IMG/VR virus record: IMGVR_UViG_2734482594_000020
Source of the DNA: a virus
Lineage: Duplodnaviria > Heunggongvirae > Uroviricota > Caudoviricetes
Direction: 5' to 3' (one strand)
DNA length: 31,289 nt
The notes under the pieces were generated by a model. That model did no database searches. It worked only from the letters and a program-made list of their open reading frames with translations, and was not told where the DNA came from. Below, piece after piece: positions 4,932 to 16,042 of this stretch (position 1 is its first letter; the number at the start of each line of letters is the position of its first letter). A program made the translations under genes and the position numbers.

Positions 4932-5294
4932 TTAACGACCTGCTGCGCGGAGTTTTCCGTCAGGTTCACCGGCAAGAGTCAGTAATTGTCCCTGGTCTTC
5001 CTGCAGAATAGTCAGGCGACCACCGCGATTGACATACATCGGCGTTTCGGTGGTGTCTTCTTCGGAAATTTTCCCGCGGTTAGTCGGGCGAACATATGAG
5101 AGTTTGTGTTTGATTTTCACACGGTTCTCATCAAATGGTTCGATTTCCAGGTTGAGCGAGACCTTACCTTTGGTTTTCGTGTTCATCACACCGGAAGCGA
5201 CTTCACTGAGAACAGCGCCGATTTTGGTTTCAAATACGCCGCCGTCCAGCTCCCCGATAAATGCCTGCACATCAGTACTGCGTTCGCTAGCCAT
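4932..5294 (-). CDS. hypothetical early protein (YfdP-like, 120 aa)
   Basis: Internal ATG at 5294 preceded by GAGGAG (8-nt spacer) on the minus strand; the longer track ORF (to 5525) runs through leader hairpins and has no RBS. Confidence 0.5.
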   Translation of the reverse strand: MASERSTDVQAFIGELDGGVFETKIGAVLSEVASGVMNTKTKGKVSLNLEIEPFDENRVKIKHKLSYVRPTNRGKISEEDTTETPMYVNRGGRLTILQEDQGQLLTLAGEPDGKLRAAGR

Positions 5295-5431
5295 TTTGCT
5301 GCTCCTCATCATATCGACCCTGCAAGGCCGATTAGTTTCTCCACAAAACAGAGAAGAACACCTGCGGTGGCAGCCGCCCGGATGGATTGGGTTATGAGCC
5401 CGTCGTCCGGTGATGCTCTTCTCTGTTTTGT

Positions 5432-5475
5432 AAAAAGAGCGGTACCAGCCGGAAGCAAGTGTACAAACTGGTACC
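5432..5475 (-). terminator. terminator-like hairpin plus U-run inside the early-left leader
   Basis: On the minus strand GGUACCAG-(19 nt)-CUGGUACC is followed by GCUCUUUUUA; sits upstream of the first early-left gene. Confidence 0.35.
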
Positions 5476-5902
5476 GCCAAAGCAGTGGCTGTTGTGGTGG
5501 GGTTGTCACTCAGGTGTATGGTCAACCTGACAATCCGGTGTCCTCAACGGGGAAAGAGTAACCCCGCCATACTTACCGCCGCGCCATTTCGCGGATTACC
5601 ACAACGCTGAGAGCACTTAGCCAGTTACGGCACCACACTTTGTCGCGGTTCCATAAATGCCCTCATCGTTGCACCCTGGTCTCTTCCCAGGCGTCAAACC
5701 GAATCGCCACGCTGGTTAGGCGTCTTATCAGCATCCTCATTGACTTGCACATTCCGGCTACCTGGTTTGTTTGCCCGAGCAAGGAGTGGATTGTCCCCTT
5801 TAACGTCCCCAGACCGCTAACGACGCATGTGCCATACGCCGTGTTACAACCAAATTTTGTCAGGACCTTGTTTGTTGGTCTGGAAAGAAAGATAAAATGA
5901 AA

Positions 5903-5940
5903 TTGCGTAACGTGCAAGTATTTTATTGCGAGATATGCAA
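5903..5940 (-). promoter_or_regulatory. oL-like operator pair with candidate pL
   Basis: Two 15-bp near-palindromes TTGCGtaacgTGCAA (5903-5917) and TTGCGagataTGCAA (5926-5940), 23 bp centre to centre; minus-strand -35 TTGCAC and -10 TATCTT candidates overlap them. Confidence 0.45.
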
Positions 5941-5949
5941 TAGCGTGAG

Positions 5950-5975
5950 TAATGAAAAGCCACCTTCTGGTGGCT
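5950..5975 (-). terminator. rho-independent terminator downstream of the repressor gene
   Basis: Hairpin AGCCACC-ttct-GGTGGCT followed on the minus strand by UUUUCAUU, about 20 nt after the repressor stop. Confidence 0.55.
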
Positions 5976-5996
5976 AATTGATGTTGAGGTAGGGGG

Positions 5997-6689
5997 TTAA
6001 TTGTGTCGCTTAAGGGTTTGTGACTGACTGATTAAGACCTTTCCAAAGACCATAAACCGGTGTTCGTTTTCGCTGGTAATTCCCCATTCGCGGTAAATCT
6101 GATTATCAGAAATTACCAGCAGTTTATCAGGTATCATTTGCAGTCGTTTGACGTAAATTTTATCATCAAAACCAAATACATATATACCATCCCCATCAAA
6201 CTGATTGATACTGATATCAACGAAGATGAGATCTCCTGGCTCAATGGTTGGACACATACTGTCCCCACGAACGTTGATAACTTTAATGTGATTTGCTGGT
6301 CGTCCACCAAACATCGATACAGCATTATCAGTTCTGTATTCAATGGCATGAATCACATCAATGACATCACCGCCCTGGATAAGGCCATTTCCCGCACTGG
6401 CACTGACATCCAGCATTTCAATACGGAATACATCCTTCACCTGCGCAACATCCTCACTAATACTGTTTTTACATACAGTATTACTTTTGAGGTCTGAGGT
6501 AAAGAGATCAGCAATATCAACACCTAAGCTCCTGGCAATATTACTCAGGGCTTGTTCAGTGAATTGTTTCTGCTTACCTGTTTCGAGGCGCGAGATATTC
6601 GCCGCATCCACTCCTATTGCTTCAGCGAGATCGGCGATTTTCATGTTCTTCGCCTGGCGAAGTTGTCTGACTCGATTTCCTATGTTCAT
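5997..6689 (-). CDS. CI-like repressor (HTH_XRE N-terminus, LexA-like S24 peptidase C-terminus)
   Basis: N-terminal HTH ('IADLAEAIGVDAANISRLETGK'); C-terminal 'GDSM' serine and 'VKRL' lysine of the self-cleaving S24 fold; divergent from a Cro-like gene. Confidence 0.9.
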   Translation of the reverse strand: MNIGNRVRQLRQAKNMKIADLAEAIGVDAANISRLETGKQKQFTEQALSNIARSLGVDIADLFTSDLKSNTVCKNSISEDVAQVKDVFRIEMLDVSASAGNGLIQGGDVIDVIHAIEYRTDNAVSMFGGRPANHIKVINVRGDSMCPTIEPGDLIFVDISINQFDGDGIYVFGFDDKIYVKRLQMIPDKLLVISDNQIYREWGITSENEHRFMVFGKVLISQSQTLKRHN

Positions 6690-6709
6690 GCGTTTATTAC
6701 ATTTCTTTA

Positions 6710-6786
6710 TTGCGCGTTAAGCAAATCAACTTGCGCAAAATATTTGCGTGAAATAATATGCTCATCACGCAATATGTGGAGGTTAT
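6710..6786. promoter_or_regulatory. oR-like operator cluster with divergent pRM/pR
   Basis: TTGCGcgttaAGCAA (6710-6724), the 8-bp palindrome TTGCGCAA (6731-6738) and aTGCTcatcaCGCAA (6758-6772) share the half-site used at oL; the Cro RBS GGAGG follows. Confidence 0.5.
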
Positions 6787-7047
6787 ATGCAATCACCATT
6801 ACGGAATGTGCGTAAGGCGCACGGATTTACTTTGCAGCATGTTGCTGCGGGCGTTCAGGTCAATCCAGCGACGCTGAGTCGTATTGAAAGACTGGAACAA
6901 ATTCCATCTGTCGATCTTGCAGAACGTCTGGCCAATTTTTTTAAGGGTGAAATCAGCGAAATGCAGATTCTTTATCCGGCACGTTTTCAATCTAGCCAAA
7001 ACCAGAATGGGTTTAAACCACAGGAACAGGAGGTAAGCCGTGGGTAA
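6787..7047 (+). CDS. Cro-like HTH (XRE) regulator
   Basis: HTH 'LQHVAAGVQVNPATLSRIERLEQ'; RBS GGAGG 4 nt upstream; divergent from the repressor. Confidence 0.75.
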   Translation: MQSPLRNVRKAHGFTLQHVAAGVQVNPATLSRIERLEQIPSVDLAERLANFFKGEISEMQILYPARFQSSQNQNGFKPQEQEVSRG

Positions 7048-7591
7048 GCATCATTGGAAAGTGGAAAAACAACCTGAGTGGTACGTGAAAGCTGTCAGAA
7101 AAACTATCGCGGCATTGCCAGGGGGTTACGCTGAAGCTGCTGACTGGCTGGATGTAACAGAGAACGCTTTATTCAACCGCCTTCGTGCAGATGGCGATCA
7201 GATTTTCCCGTTGGGATGGGCAATGGTTTTACAGCGTGCTGCTGGCAATCACCACATTGCGGATGCTGTCGCACAGTCTGCTGGTGGGGTGTTTGTATCA
7301 CTTCCTGAAATTGAGGAAGTAGAGAACGCCGATATCAACCAGCGCCTGCTGGAGGTCATTGAACAGATCGGCAGTTATTCCAGACAGATTCGTTCAGCAA
7401 TTGAAGACGGTGTAGTGGAACCGCATGAGAAGACAGCAATTAATGATGAATTGTATCTGTCAATTTCGAAGCTCCAGGAGCATGCGGCACTGGTCTACAA
7501 AATTTTCTGCGCTCCAGAAAAGAGTGACGCCCGCGAGTGTGCAGCTCCGGGCGTCGTGGCGTTTTGTGTCTGTGGAGAAACTAACGCATGA
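7040..7591 (+). CDS. CII-like / YdaT-like lysogeny regulator
   Basis: GTG start with AGGAGG 6 nt upstream; the position immediately after cro is typical of the CII(CP76)/YdaT family; assignment by synteny and general resemblance only. Confidence 0.45.
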   Translation: MGKHHWKVEKQPEWYVKAVRKTIAALPGGYAEAADWLDVTENALFNRLRADGDQIFPLGWAMVLQRAAGNHHIADAVAQSAGGVFVSLPEIEEVENADINQRLLEVIEQIGSYSRQIRSAIEDGVVEPHEKTAINDELYLSISKLQEHAALVYKIFCAPEKSDARECAAPGVVAFCVCGETNA

Positions 7592-8736
7592 ACAGTTTAA
7601 CGGCAAATAACCGTTTGTCGCAACAGCTGGTGGTCAGTGTCGCTGCACACCTGTTGTTACGGCATGAATGCAGATTACCAAATCACCTGGCTGTAAGTAA
7701 CCACAGAGAACTTTACCTGACTGTGGGGGGCGAGTTGTGCAGGAACTTAACCGCTGGTTTCGTGACGGAAGAGGACTTTATGTTCATGTTATTCGTTGGG
7801 AGCCAGAAACACAGCGCGTTATCTATCTTCGCAAAGACTACCCGCATGAGTGCTTTAGTCCTTTGTGGAAATTCAGGCGTGATTTTGTTGAGTGTGAAGG
7901 ACCACCAGCACATTGATTCTGCCATTCCGGGCCGTTACACTGTTCAGGCACCTTATAAAGCGGGTGCCGGGATTGGCGTCCTGGAATTGCATACGGCGAC
8001 AATTGGCGCGTTAGCGTCTTTTTTGTTGCTACAACTCAGCTATACCCAAATTATGGTGGGCTGGGTGGGGGCACCGAAAGGTGCGCCGGTTTCCGTATGC
8101 GCCGGTTACGCCAACCCTGCTCAGTTCACCACCAGCGAAATTGGCGTTTCCGGTGGTGGAAGTTATCCATTGCATACGGAGGCTGCCATCATGGCTACGA
8201 TCCCTGCCTTAGTTCAACCTGAACTTTGCATTATTGCAGACAAAGTTGTTACTTCTTCTCTGGCTGTTGCTAGTTATTTCGGCAAACAACACAAAAACGT
8301 CATTCAAAAAATTGCGTCTCTTGAATGCTCTGCCGAATTTACTGAGCTGAATTTCCAGCTCAGTGAGTACATCGACGCATCAGGCCGCAAACTACCTTGC
8401 TATCAAATAACCCGCGACGGCTTTGCGTTTCTTGCTATGGGTTTCACGGGTAAACGTGCTGCCCAGTTCAAAGAGGCATACATCAATGCCTTTAACCAGA
8501 TGGAGAAACAGCTTTCAAAGCCCGCTGTACCGAGCGACGTTGCACATAACGCCAGCGTTCTCTGTTCCTACATTTCATCAATTCATCAGGTCTGGCTGCA
8601 GCAGCTTTATCCTATGTTGGCAAAAGCCGAATCTCCGCTGGCTGTTAGCTTATATGACTATATTAATGATGCTTCGGCGCTGGCCTGCCTCATAAATTTG
8701 TCGCTGAACCCTTCAGAGGTAAGGGGGCGCAAATGA
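7588..8736 (+). CDS. Rha/ORF6N-family phage regulatory protein (domain in residues ~202-300); start uncertain, alternative internal start at 8191
   Basis: 382-codon open frame with ATGA coupling to the upstream gene and GGAG before the ATG at 7588; the Rha-like motif 'SSLAVASYFGKQHKNVIQKI' lies after the internal ATG at 8191, which has its own GGAGG RBS. Confidence 0.5.
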   Translation: MNSLTANNRLSQQLVVSVAAHLLLRHECRLPNHLAVSNHRELYLTVGGELCRNLTAGFVTEEDFMFMLFVGSQKHSALSIFAKTTRMSALVLCGNSGVILLSVKDHQHIDSAIPGRYTVQAPYKAGAGIGVLELHTATIGALASFLLLQLSYTQIMVGWVGAPKGAPVSVCAGYANPAQFTTSEIGVSGGGSYPLHTEAAIMATIPALVQPELCIIADKVVTSSLAVASYFGKQHKNVIQKIASLECSAEFTELNFQLSEYIDASGRKLPCYQITRDGFAFLAMGFTGKRAAQFKEAYINAFNQMEKQLSKPAVPSDVAHNASVLCSYISSIHQVWLQQLYPMLAKAESPLAVSLYDYINDASALACLINLSLNPSEVRGRK

Positions 8737-14989: not shown

Positions 14990-16042
14990 ATGAAAAATAC
15001 TGTAAAAATAAACAGTGTTGATTTAATCAACGCTGATTGCCTGCATTTTATTCAGTCCCTGCCTGATAACTCCATTGATCTGATTGTTACCGATCCGCCG
15101 TACTTCAAAGTGAAGCCCAACGGCTGGGACAATCAGTGGAAAGGGGACGAAGATTACCTGAAGTGGCTGGACCACTGTCTGGCCCAGTTCTGGCGGGTAC
15201 TGAAACCAGCCGGAAGCCTTTACCTGTTCTGTGGGCATCGCCTGGCATCTGATATTGAGATCATGATGCGTGAACGTTTCAACGTGCTTAACCATATCAT
15301 CTGGGCGAAGCCGTCCGGACGTTGGAATGGGTGTAATAAAGAAAGTCTGCGTGCATATTTTCCTGCCACAGAGCGCGTTCTGTTTGCTGAACATTACCAG
15401 GGGCCATATCGCGGCAAAAGTGACGGCTATGCGGCAAAAGAAAGGGAACTCAAACAGCACATAATGGCACCGCTGATTTCGTATTTCAGGGATGCTCGTG
15501 CCGAACTGGGTATAACGGCAAAACAAATTGCCGAAGCCACAGGTAAGAAAAATATGGTTTCCCACTGGTTTGGTGCCAGTCAGTGGCAGTTGCCGAATGA
15601 GGCTGACTATCGGAAGTTACAGGCACTGTTTTCCCGTATAGCGGCAGAGAAGTTTCAGGAACAACAACTGGAACAACCACACCACCAGCTGGTGGCATCT
15701 TATGATTCACTGAATCGCAAATATTCTGAATTGCTGGATGAGTTTAAATCTCTCCGGCGCTATTTCTCCGTATCAGTCTCCGTGCCTTATACCGATGTCT
15801 GGATGCATAAACCCGTTCAGTTCTACCCGGGGAAACATCCGTGTGAGAAACCGGCGGATATGCTCAGGCAAATAATCAATGCCAGTAGTCGACCTGGTGA
15901 TCTGGTTGCTGATTTTTTTATGGGATCCGGTTCCACAATAAAAGCAGCAATGGCGCTGGGGCGTCGGGCCTTAGGTGTTGAGCTTGAGTCAGAGCGGTTT
16001 AATCAGACAGTGAAAGAGATAAACGAGCTGGTGGGGAAATAA
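14990..16042 (+). CDS. orphan DNA methyltransferase (N6-adenine/N4-cytosine class, DPPY motif)
   Basis: 'LIVTDPPYF' catalytic motif near the N-terminus and C-terminal 'FFMGSGST' AdoMet-binding motif; no restriction partner nearby. Confidence 0.7.

What the first reader, a model, noticed from the sequence alone, without database searches (positions are those of the whole stretch)
5903..6786. Shared 15-bp operator motif TTGCG-N5-WGCAA on both sides of the repressor gene
Two tandem copies lie left of the repressor (5903-5917, 5926-5940) and at least two right of it (6710-6724, 6758-6772), with an 8-bp palindrome TTGCGCAA between the latter. This is the architecture expected for oL and oR and defines the immunity specificity of this phage, which differs from the lambda, 434 and P22 operators as I recall them.
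Basis: seen in the sequence. Interest (0 to 1): 0.45.

Follow-up and report, generated by a model that had tools for sequence, protein, structure and literature searches.

The report
Operator sites of a common prophage repressor
The repeated 15-bp palindrome flanking this prophage's repressor gene is very likely the set of binding sites through which the repressor and Cro control the phage's three early promoters. This is an ordinary kind of switch with a sequence specificity barely described so far, and an unexpected host LexA site sits inside the repressor gene.

Summary
Exact TTGCG-N5-WGCAA occurs three times in 31 kb (0.27 expected), all beside the cI-like gene. The fourth site (6758-6772) matches only on the minus strand, with one mismatch.

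Comparative evidence supports the oL/oR reading:
- About 29 homologous loci from about 14 enterobacterial genera (repressor identity 100 to 40%) keep the same sites at fixed positions while the spacers vary.
- An unbiased palindrome enumeration ranks this motif first: 51 sites in 7.7 kb of flanks against 3 in 86.6 kb elsewhere.
- In phage cdtI the block 5861-7011 is replaced by another cI/cro pair carrying a different palindrome.
- 80 viral contigs with 96% or more identical repressors keep the arms while the spacers drift.

The sites overlap the inferred pL, pRM and pR.

The switch departs from lambda. It has two full OR sites 48 bp apart, an invariant TTGCGCAA (the pR -35) where OR2 would be, and a conserved site inside cro codons 8-12.

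A 2025 preprint on phage 1720a-02, which has a nearly identical module, placed Cro on the 6710-6724 site with AlphaFold3. No direct binding data exist.

The verdict is a new member of a known kind.

One extra finding: a near-consensus LexA box (6461-6480) is conserved inside the cI linker.

The parts
5889..5894 (-). Putative pL -10 (TATCTT on the - strand), 17 nt downstream of the -35 supplied by the outer half of the 5903-5917 site.
   Evidence: Read from the sequence. AGATAA-type block at a fixed 8 nt from the promoter-proximal OL site in most of 26 loci. Inferred, with no transcript data. The consensus promoter scan does not report it.
5903..5917 (.). OL site 1 (promoter-proximal), TTGCGTAACGTGCAA. 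Its outer half, TTGCAC on the - strand (5917..5912), is the putative pL -35.
   Evidence: Exact motif. Matrix score 19.0. Conserved position in relatives. Arms nearly invariant and spacer variable among 53 distinct oL sequences.
5926..5940 (.). OL site 2, TTGCGAGATATGCAA, 23 bp centre-to-centre from site 1.
   Evidence: Exact motif. Score 19.2. Tandem spacing of 22-24 bp in 22 of 24 site pairs across loci.
5958..5975 (-). Hairpin terminator that ends the cI transcript and separates cI from oL/pL.
   Evidence: Terminator scan. Annotated as a terminator in SfII at the same place.
5997..6689 (-). cI-like repressor, 230 aa: N-terminal HTH (recognition helix DAANISRLETG) plus a C-terminal S24 autopeptidase (A99-G100, S144, K181).
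   Evidence: Pfam HTH_3/HTH_31 and Peptidase_S24. Invariant residues in the alignments.
6461..6480 (.). LexA (SOS) box inside cI codons 70-77. It reads TACTGTTTTTACATACAGTA on the + strand and TACTGTATGTAAAAACAGTA on the coding strand.
   Evidence: 17 of 20 matches to TACTGTATATATATACAGTA. It is an island of near-total conservation within the most variable part of the gene in 26 loci, with synonymous positions fixed. CTGT/ACAG are invariant in 80 of 80 viral contigs.
6696..6701 (-). Putative pRM -10 (TGTAAT on the - strand), 6 nt from the cI ATG. This implies a leaderless cI mRNA starting at 6689.
   Evidence: ATTACA is at maximal information content at a fixed distance from CAT in a gapless alignment of 22 loci. 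There is no Shine-Dalgarno sequence before the ATG. Inferred.
6710..6724 (.). OR site next to cI ('ORa', in the OR3 position), TTGCGCGTTAAGCAA. Its right half is the putative pRM -35 (TTGCTT on the - strand). The site covers -21 to -35.
   Evidence: Exact motif. Score 16.4. Present at the same offset in 25 of 29 loci. It lies inside the 20-bp stretch on which AlphaFold3 placed Cro of phage 1720a-02.
6731..6738 (.). Invariant octamer TTGCGCAA, two overlapping half-sites. 6731-6736 is the putative pR -35.
   Evidence: Always 21 bp from ORa. Maximal information content. 80 of 80 in viral contigs. A constant 17-nt spacer to TAATAT. No conserved second half-site, and every full-site register through it scores below zero.
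6754..6759 (+). Putative pR -10 (TAATAT).
   Evidence: Conserved TAAtAT 17 nt after TTGCGC in 22 loci. Inferred.
6758..6772 (.). OR site next to cro ('ORb', in the OR1 position), ATGCTCATCACGCAA. It overlaps the pR -10 and start point, and its left half is weakened (ATGCT).
   Evidence: One mismatch on the - strand. Score 14.8. Relatives have ATGCR-N5-CGCAA, always 48 bp from ORa. In phiNP this is the site on which AlphaFold3 placed the Cro of 1720a-02.
6787..7047 (+). cro, 86 aa, HTH_3. The recognition helix is NPATLSRIERL, and R32 is the residue modelled on the operator guanines in the preprint.
   Evidence: Pfam. By eye about 97% identical to Cro of 1720a-02 (sequences printed; identity not computed). 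Preprint section 9.
6808..6822 (.). Candidate extra operator inside cro codons 8-12, GTGCGTAAGGCGCAC. It is weak here and is TTGCG-N5-CGCAA in many relatives. It lies 50 bp from ORb.
   Evidence: Found at CDS offset 21 in 16 of the 19 cro homologues found. Leu8 is always TTG, Arg9 always CGN and Ser11 always TCG. It scores 14.8 in ST64B but only 6.4 here.
5861..7011 (.). The exchangeable immunity cassette: pL/oL, terminator, cI, oR and most of cro.
   Evidence: Homology with phage cdtI is 99% over 5000-5860 and 95% over 7012-7985, with nothing in between. cdtI carries an unrelated cI/cro and GTAC-type palindromes there.

Best explanation
The 15-bp sites (family consensus WTGCR-N5-YGCAW, best form TTGCG-N5-CGCAA) are the operators of this prophage's immunity switch. 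Each is bound by a dimer of the CI-like repressor (5997-6689, - strand) and by Cro (6787-7047).

Left of cI, two sites 23 bp apart sit on the early leftward promoter. The outer half of the 5903-5917 site is its -35, so a repressor pair shuts off pL.

Right of cI there are three elements:
- Site 6758-6772 covers the -10 and start of pR and shuts off cro and the lytic genes.
- Site 6710-6724 covers the -35 and spacer of the cI promoter. That promoter appears to make a leaderless cI mRNA. This site is where excess CI, or Cro after induction, turns cI off.
- Between them, an invariant TTGCGCAA serves as the pR -35 and probably as a half-site.

SOS induction would work through RecA-stimulated self-cleavage of CI at A99-G100.

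Shown by sequence analysis: the sites, their significance, their conservation, and their co-inheritance with cI/cro. Inferred: the promoter positions, which protein binds which site and in what order, and cooperativity.
For: - Significance: three exact sites against 0.27 expected, all next to cI.
- Protein domains: HTH plus S24 repressor, HTH Cro, and a CP76-type CII.
- Conservation in phages: the same sites at the same places in SfII, mEp460, an ST64B-like phage, Klebsiella phages and Flotzy.
- Conservation in genomes: the same in 22 genomic loci from about 14 genera, down to 40% repressor identity.
- Unbiased enumeration: among 256 four-base arms at 13 gap lengths, TTGC-N7-GCAA ranks first, with 51 sites in 7.7 kb of flanks against 3 in 86.6 kb elsewhere.
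- Gapless footprint: only the arms, the octamer, the two -10 boxes and the Shine-Dalgarno sequence are conserved.
- Fixed geometry: ORa to octamer 21 bp, ORa to ORb 48 bp, OL pairs 22-24 bp.
- Cassette swap with cdtI.
- Matrix trained on other genera: it picks exactly these four sites in the window, mEp460 and ST64B, and none in the control phage LLS.
- Population data: 80 viral contigs with 96% or more identical repressors have 53 distinct oL sequences, with nearly invariant arms and free spacers.
- CI and Cro align through Pfam HTH_3 coordinates, giving ANISRLE against ATLSRIE.
- Outside support: bioRxiv 10.1101/2025.01.01.630987 shows that Cro of 1720a-02 represses a phiNP control-region reporter. 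It also places Cro by AlphaFold3 on 20-39 nt upstream of cI, which is ATTGCGCGTTAAGCAAATCA and contains 6710-6724.
Against: - There is no EMSA, footprint or ChIP for CI or Cro of this family in anything I could read.
- The three promoters have weak -35 hexamers (3 of 6 matches), and the consensus promoter scan does not report them.
- No conserved full middle (OR2) site exists, so lambda-style activation of pRM is not supported.
- Site 6710-6724, which would shut off cI, scores better here than the pR site (16.4 against 14.8). That is awkward for stable lysogeny unless the affinities differ from what the matrix suggests.
- Fels-1 (52% identical) has a recognition helix almost the same as Cronobacter phage ENT47670, yet Fels-1 has a different palindrome while ENT47670 keeps this motif. 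The helix alone therefore does not predict specificity.
- The loci compared are related to one another, so counts of loci are not independent events.
Confidence: 0.87

Rival explanations
1. The sites are real protein-binding sites, but for only one of the two regulators, for example Cro alone. CI would recognise something else, or would need the octamer or other registers.
For: The only modelling and genetics available concern Cro. BLASTP finds no alignment between the CI N-terminal domain and Cro.
Against: Both proteins match the same HTH_3 profile in register and share A-x-[IL]-S-R-[LI]-E. The oL sites lie where only a lysogenic repressor needs them. No other repeated motif is enriched in the flanks.
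Confidence: 0.07
2. The repeats are mainly promoter -35 elements (TTGC..) and A/T-rich spacers that look palindromic by accident. They are not operators.
For: Each inferred promoter uses a TTGC hexamer as its -35. One-mismatch matches are not enriched in the window.
Against: Both arms are conserved at exactly N5 spacing. This includes arms that are not part of any -35, namely the distal OL site and the left half of ORa. The motif disappears when cI/cro is exchanged, although the promoters are still needed.
Confidence: 0.03
3. The motif is bound by another factor: the CII-like protein (7040-7591) or a host regulator.
For: Lambda CII recognises TTGC repeats (from memory). The CII-like gene lies next door.
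Against: cdtI shares the CII-like gene at 95% identity but lacks the motif. The motif follows cI/cro across about 14 host genera. The TTGC-N6-TTGC direct repeat is absent from oL and oR.
Confidence: 0.02

Closest known systems
Phage lambda immunity region (OL-cI-OR-cro with pL, pRM, pR)
   Same: - cI and cro are divergent.
- The repressor has an HTH plus an S24 self-cleaving domain with an Ala-Gly site and a Ser/Lys dyad.
- Imperfect palindromic operators overlap the promoters.
- Tandem OL sites lie about 23 bp apart.
- The cI message is probably leaderless.
- The region is exchangeable as a cassette.
   Different: - The site is a 15-bp TTGCG-N5-CGCAA type, not lambda's 17-bp TATCACCGC type.
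- There are only two full OR sites, 48 bp apart.
- An invariant TTGCGCAA stands in place of OR2.
- The cI-proximal site supplies the pRM -35 itself.
- A further conserved site lies inside cro.
- There are no N, cIII or rex genes.
- A LexA box lies inside cI.
Phage 1720a-02 / phiNP Cro cross-regulation (Hashuel et al., bioRxiv 10.1101/2025.01.01.630987)
   Same: It is the same immunity module. cI is 98.3% identical, and the control region differs from the window by one base, in ORb. Their predicted Cro site contains 6710-6724. Their phiNP site is the ORb equivalent.
   Different: They report one AlphaFold3-predicted 20-bp site per phage, plus in vivo genetics.

My comparison shows that both phages carry both sites. 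It also shows that ORb is weakened in the Stx-type module (ATGCT...) but near-perfect in phiNP (ATGCGTATTGCGCAA). That difference could explain the one-way interference they describe.
434 and P22 repressor/Cro operators
   Same: The N-terminal domain is closest in sequence to the engineered 434-type domain dh434 (E = 3e-5), with native 434 repressor at E = 2.6e-3. Repressors of P22-type phages are about 42% identical overall. CI and Cro share recognition-helix residues, as they do in 434.
   Different: The operator patterns ACAA-N6-TTGT and TNAAG-N4-CTTNA, written from memory, are absent from 5850-6850. The recognition helix here is ANISRLE rather than the Q-Q type.
TP901-1-type switches with an operator inside the cro-analogue gene (recalled from memory, not tested)
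   Same: A third operator lies inside the first lytic gene, at some distance from the promoter-proximal sites.
   Different: The repressor family is unrelated. Whether the 6808-6822 site is bound at all is unknown.
umuDC operator and UmuD (for the LexA box in cI)
   Same: The box in several relatives, TACTGTATATAAAAACAGTA, is the sequence I recall as the umuDC SOS box. The C-terminal 147 residues hit only UmuD/UmuD' among solved structures (E = 1e-4).
   Different: The box sits inside a coding sequence, 212 nt into cI. No promoter has been demonstrated there.

Membership tests
Lambdoid CI/Cro immunity switch | Repressor with an N-terminal HTH and a C-terminal LexA-like S24 autopeptidase (Ala-Gly site, Ser nucleophile, Lys base) | tested here: met
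   Pfam HTH_3/HTH_31 and Peptidase_S24. A99-G100, S144 (GDSM) and K181 are invariant in the alignments.
Lambdoid CI/Cro immunity switch | A small HTH Cro gene transcribed divergently from cI | tested here: met
   6787-7047, 86 aa, HTH_3 E = 6.8e-10. Annotated as Cro in related phages.
Lambdoid CI/Cro immunity switch | Several related imperfect palindromes in the cI-cro intergenic region, overlapping the divergent promoters | tested here: met
   ORa 6710-6724 and ORb 6758-6772 plus the octamer. Conserved geometry and overlap with the conserved -10/-35 blocks.
Lambdoid CI/Cro immunity switch | A second operator cluster at the early leftward promoter, beyond the end of cI | tested here: met
   5903-5917 and 5926-5940, downstream of the cI terminator. 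At least one OL site in 27 of 29 loci and at least two in 22 of 29. A -10-like block at a fixed distance.
Lambdoid CI/Cro immunity switch | Operators are inherited together with cI/cro as one exchangeable immunity cassette | tested here: met
   The cdtI comparison gives boundaries at 5860/5861 and 7011/7012, with a different motif inside.
Lambdoid CI/Cro immunity switch | Three adjacent OR sites, with the middle one positioned to activate pRM | tested here: not met
   The region between the octamer and the pR -10 is unconserved. Every register for a middle site scores below zero.
Lambdoid CI/Cro immunity switch | Direct, sequence-specific binding of CI and Cro to the operators | not testable with these tools
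   Only indirect support: the Cro genetics, a reporter assay and an AlphaFold3 model for phage 1720a-02.
Lambda, 434 or P22 immunity specificity | Operators matching the known consensus of that phage | tested here: not met
   No match to the patterns, written from memory, in 5850-6850. Repressor identity to P22-type and HK022 repressors is only about 42%.
LexA regulon site (SOS box) | A 20-bp TACTG-N10-CAGTA palindrome close to the consensus | tested here: met
   6461-6480, 17 of 20 matches. Relatives have 16-19 of 20.
LexA regulon site (SOS box) | The box overlaps a promoter that LexA represses | tested here: inconclusive
   A candidate TTTACC-17-TACTGT exists on the coding strand, but it is weak and constrained by coding. 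The scan reports no promoter there. There is no conserved antisense -35.

The most novel reading that the evidence does not exclude
The switch takes a second, direct SOS input. A high-affinity LexA box conserved inside the cI linker (6461-6480) would control an internal promoter, and an in-frame start at GTG codon 84 (6440..6438) preceded by GAGGA would follow it. During DNA damage the gene would then also produce a 147-residue, UmuD-like C-terminal isoform that lacks the DNA-binding domain. That isoform could poison CI dimers or cooperativity, or compete for activated RecA.

The operator code TTGCG-N5-CGCAA is shared by cI/cro pairs only 40-70% identical and is present in about a fifth of complete E. 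coli genomes. Co-resident prophages could therefore regulate one another. Weakened self-operators such as this window's ATGCT half-site would decide which prophage dominates.
Probability: 0.25. Interest if true: 0.75.

Novelty: new member of a known kind. Interest (0 to 1): 0.42.

Why it matters
- This immunity module is common. It is in 1040 of 5426 complete E. coli genomes, with up to 3 copies per genome. It is also carried by Stx2a, Stx2d and Stx2k phages, by SfII, ST64B and phiNP, and by many Klebsiella prophages.
- Knowing the operator code allows immunity groups and prophage cross-talk to be predicted from sequence. It also gives a sequence-level rationale for the reported suppression of phiNP by the Cro of a Stx phage.
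- It provides defined targets for mutations that alter Stx-phage induction.
- If functional, the LexA box inside the repressor gene would be an undescribed way of wiring the SOS response into a lysogenic switch.

Tried and rejected
1. I first took a 2025 Genome Research statement ('operator specificity unknown, likely novel') to apply to this family. Phage LLS turned out to have an unrelated 208-aa repressor and its own motif, so the statement does not apply.
2. The consensus promoter scan found none of the three inferred promoters, because their -35 hexamers match at only 3 of 6 positions. The promoters therefore rest on conservation only.
3. I looked for a lambda-like OR2 in the registers 6724-6738, 6731-6745, 6734-6748 and 6744-6758. 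All score below zero and the region is unconserved.
4. BLASTP of the CI N-terminal domain against Cro gave no alignment. I used Pfam profile coordinates to align them instead.
5. Rfam found nothing in the ORF-poor leader left of pL.
6. Text searches for the exact site strings returned nothing. TTGCGCAA with 'repressor' and 'phage' returned no title concerning this repressor or operator family, although I read none of the hits. The GenBank records of mEp460, ST64B and SfII annotate no operators. The ST64B paper could not be opened.
7. An antisense promoter at the LexA box is unlikely, since no conserved -35 is present.
8. The viral-contig scan returned only relatives 96-100% identical. It served for population variation, not for reaching distant relatives.
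Full report
**What is in the sequence**

The region holds a standard lambdoid immunity layout.
- A 230-aa repressor lies on the minus strand (5997-6689). It has an N-terminal helix-turn-helix and a C-terminal S24 self-cleaving domain.
- An 86-aa HTH Cro is transcribed divergently (6787-7047).
- A CP76-type CII-like gene follows (7040-7591).
- A hairpin terminator ends cI at 5958-5975.

The exact pattern occurs only these three times in 31 kb, against 0.27 expected.

The fourth site, 6758-6772, reads ATGCTCATCACGCAA. It fits only on the other strand, with one mismatch. At that stringency the window is not enriched, so this site needs outside support.

**Where the module occurs**

The same immunity module at 96-100% identity is found in phages mEp460, PhiR40_1/47_1/55_1/63_1, phiSTEC1575-Stx2k, 1720a-02, Stx2a_1447 and Stx2a_WGPS2. 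SfII has it at about 90% DNA identity. It is also in 1040 of 5426 complete E. coli genomes.

More distant repressors of the same family:
- ST64B and its relatives, 84%.
- Many Klebsiella phages, 71%.
- phiNP, Flotzy and Eeyore, 68%.
- Cronobacter phage ENT47670, 50%.
- 22 genomic loci from Citrobacter, Kluyvera, Klebsiella, Buttiauxella, Trabulsiella, Pantoea, Mixta, Rosenbergiella, Dryocola, Proteus, Serratia and Phaseolibacter, down to 40%.

**Comparative test of the motif**

In these loci the motif sits at the same places while its 5-bp spacer changes freely.

I enumerated every 4-base-arm palindrome with gaps of 0 to 12 bp over 26 loci. TTGC-N7-GCAA came first, with 51 sites in 7.7 kb of flanks against 3 in 86.6 kb elsewhere. 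TTGCGCAA came second.

A gapless alignment of the cI-cro intergenic region needs no motif definition. It shows conservation only at these elements:
- ATTACA, 6 nt from the cI start.
- The two arms of the 6710 site.
- CTTGCGCAA.
- TAAtAT.
- The two arms of the 6758 site, which read ATGCR-N5-CGCAA in relatives.
- The Shine-Dalgarno sequence of cro.

Distances are fixed. The first site to the octamer is always 21 bp, and the first site to the second is always 48 bp. Tandem left-hand sites are 22-24 bp apart in 22 of 24 pairs.

A weight matrix built from 61 sites of other genera finds exactly the four sites in this window (19.2, 19.0, 16.4 and 14.8; next best 11.5). It finds the equivalent four in mEp460 and ST64B, and none in the control phage LLS. 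No 15-mer in 72.8 kb of control DNA reaches 12.

Eighty IMG/VR contigs have repressors 96-100% identical. Among them are 53 distinct left-hand regions in which the arms are almost invariant and the spacers and flanks vary. The octamer is identical in all 80.

**The motif belongs to cI/cro**

Phage cdtI is 99% identical to the window over 5000-5860 and 95% over 7012-7985. It shares nothing in between. In that gap it carries an unrelated e14-type cI and cro, with GTAC-based palindromes at the corresponding places and no TTGCG motif.

The shared 95% segment includes the CII-like gene, which rules that protein out as the binder. CI and Cro both match Pfam HTH_3 in register. This aligns ANISRLE in CI with ATLSRIE in Cro.

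**How it most likely works (inferred)**

All three promoters use a TTGC hexamer as their -35.
- *pL:* TTGCAC (5917..5912), 17 nt, TATCTT (5894..5889). The promoter-proximal site covers the -35 and spacer, and the second site lies 23 bp upstream, as expected for a cooperative pair.
- *pRM:* TTGCTT (6724..6719), 17 nt, TGTAAT (6701..6696), then 6 nt to the ATG with no ribosome-binding site. This gives a leaderless cI message, and site 6710-6724 covers -21 to -35.
- *pR:* TTGCGC (6731-6736), 17 nt, TAATAT (6754-6759). Site 6758-6772 covers the -10 and the start point.

The consensus scan misses all three promoters because their -35 boxes match at only 3 of 6 positions. They rest on conservation.

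The design differs from lambda. There is no conserved middle site. The octamer is more conserved than a -35 needs to be, which remains unexplained. The site next to cI has the same geometry as the one on pL, so it should repress cI rather than activate it.

**A further candidate site**

In 16 of the 19 loci where a cro homologue was found, codons 8-12 of cro spell another copy of the motif. It reads TTGCG-N5-CGCAA in many relatives and the weaker GTGCGTAAGGCGCAC at 6808-6822 here.
- Leu8 is always TTG. TTG is a minority of all Leu codons in those genes (33 of 180, including these positions).
- Arg9 is always CGN.
- Ser11 is always TCG.
- The bases between these vary.

In ST64B this site scores 14.8.

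**What was already known**

I found no description of these operators in the text library or in the GenBank records.

One preprint is directly relevant: Hashuel et al., bioRxiv 10.1101/2025.01.01.630987. Phage 1720a-02 has a 98.3% identical cI and a control region that differs from the window by one base.
- Deleting its cro restores induction of the co-resident prophage phiNP.
- Cro supplied from a plasmid represses a phiNP control-region reporter.
- AlphaFold3 places the Cro dimer on a 'semi-palindromic' 20-bp stretch 20-39 nt upstream of cI. That stretch is ATTGCGCGTTAAGCAAATCA and contains 6710-6724.
- In phiNP, AlphaFold3 places Cro on the site next to cro. Arg32 contacts guanines of the TTGC half-site.

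My comparison adds that both phages carry both right-hand sites. The Stx-type pR site has a weakened half (ATGCT), whereas the phiNP site is nearly perfect (ATGCGTATTGCGCAA). That could explain why the interference runs one way.

**Limits of 'immunity specificity'**

The same arms serve repressors from 100% down to 40% identity. Fels-1 (52%) has switched to an ACATA/TATGT-type palindrome. ENT47670 (50%) has nearly the same recognition helix as Fels-1 but keeps ATGCG-N5-CGCAT. The arms therefore define a family, and finer specificity must lie elsewhere.

The phage also has a second control layer: isrK and C4 antisense RNAs lie upstream of a Rha-type antirepressor.

**An unexpected feature inside the finding's coordinates**

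While testing for other operator types, I found a near-consensus LexA box at 6461-6480. It reads TACTGTATGTAAAAACAGTA on the coding strand, with 17 of 20 matches.

It lies in cI codons 70-77, in the interdomain linker, which is the most variable part of the protein. Even so, it forms an island of near-complete nucleotide conservation in 26 loci, with 16-19 of 20 matches.
- The residue before the serine is N, H, S, P, D, T or Y, yet its codon always ends in C.
- Ser is always AGT and Thr is always ACT.
- CTGT/ACAG are invariant in all 80 viral contigs.
- Fels-1 has the box as well.

A possible coding-strand promoter is TTTACC-17-TACTGT. Within 16 codons after the box, 26 of 27 loci have an in-frame ATG, GTG or TTG preceded by a GGAG/GAGG-type string. 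Elsewhere in these genes such combinations occur 25 times in 5483 codons.

The implied product here is residues 84-230. It would resemble UmuD, and UmuD is the only solved-structure sequence match.

The promoter and the start codon are weakly supported. The -35 is constrained by coding, and the linker is purine-rich by composition. I therefore treat the nested isoform as a hypothesis and the LexA box itself as a solid observation.

**Verdict**

This is a new member of a well-known kind of system, with one site anticipated by a preprint. The architecture departs from lambda's in several testable ways, and the conserved LexA box inside cI deserves its own follow-up.

Noticed in passing
window 6461-6480: A near-consensus LexA (SOS) box lies inside cI codons 70-77, in the interdomain linker. 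It is conserved at the nucleotide level in 26 family loci and in 80 of 80 viral contigs, although the linker amino acids vary. Synonymous positions are fixed. Fels-1 has it too.
   Followed up: partly
window 6503..5997 (- strand): A possible LexA-controlled nested gene: -35 TTTACC (6503..6498), -10 TACTGT (6480..6475), GAGGA, then in-frame GTG codon 84 (6440..6438). The product would be a 147-aa UmuD-like C-terminal isoform. An SD-like string plus an in-frame start follows the box in 26 of 27 loci.
   Followed up: partly
window 6808-6822: A copy of the operator motif lies inside cro codons 8-12. It is weak here and is TTGCG-N5-CGCAA in many relatives. Codon choice (Leu TTG, Arg CGN, Ser TCG) points to constraint at the DNA level.
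   Followed up: partly
window 6731-6738: TTGCGCAA is invariant across genera and in 80 of 80 close relatives. That is more conserved than the operators themselves and more than a weak -35 should require. There is no conserved partner half-site.
   Followed up: partly
window 7948-8136 and 8251-8508: Rfam isrK (7948-8024) and C4 antisense RNA (8049-8136) lie just upstream of a Rha-domain antirepressor. Both RNAs fall inside the 382-aa ORF 7588-8736, whose 5' part (the Pfam 'Ash' match) may therefore not be coding. This would be a second immunity layer of the P1/P7 immI type.
   Followed up: partly
window 14998-15017: A second strong LexA-box-like sequence, TACTGTAAAAATAAACAGTG, overlaps the first codons of a DNA methylase gene that starts at 14990. 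It is conserved at the same gene in mEp460 and LLS.
   Followed up: no
window 5300-5880: A roughly 570-nt stretch between the inferred pL start and the first convincing leftward gene (yfdP-like) has no credible ORF, no N homologue and no Rfam match. It is 99% conserved in phage cdtI, which has a different immunity cassette.
   Followed up: partly
L039-L118 (IMG/VR), region equivalent to window 5880-5995: The left operator region is hypervariable. There are 53 distinct sequences among 80 loci whose repressors are 96% or more identical, against 23 distinct right-hand regions. The changes concentrate in the spacers and between the sites.
   Followed up: partly
L007 (phage cdtI) 1840-1965 and 2630-2735: The alternative e14-type cI/cro cassette carries its own GTAC-based palindromes (AGATACATTATGTATCT, TGTACCGATAGGGTACA) at the positions equivalent to oL and oR.
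   Followed up: partly
L033 (Fels-1) and L034 (ENT47670): These two repressors have almost identical recognition helices (DVGN[IL]SRLERGMQ) but different flanking palindromes. Fels-1 has an ACATA/TATGT type, while ENT47670 has ATGCG-N5-CGCAT, including two abutting 15-mers in its oL.
   Followed up: partly
L032 (phage LLS) 32180-33090: LLS has an unrelated 208-aa repressor flanked by ACTAAG/CTTAGT-type repeats. The published link of LLS CI to 'mEp460_4F5' therefore does not concern the mEp460 (JQ182728) repressor found here.
   Followed up: yes
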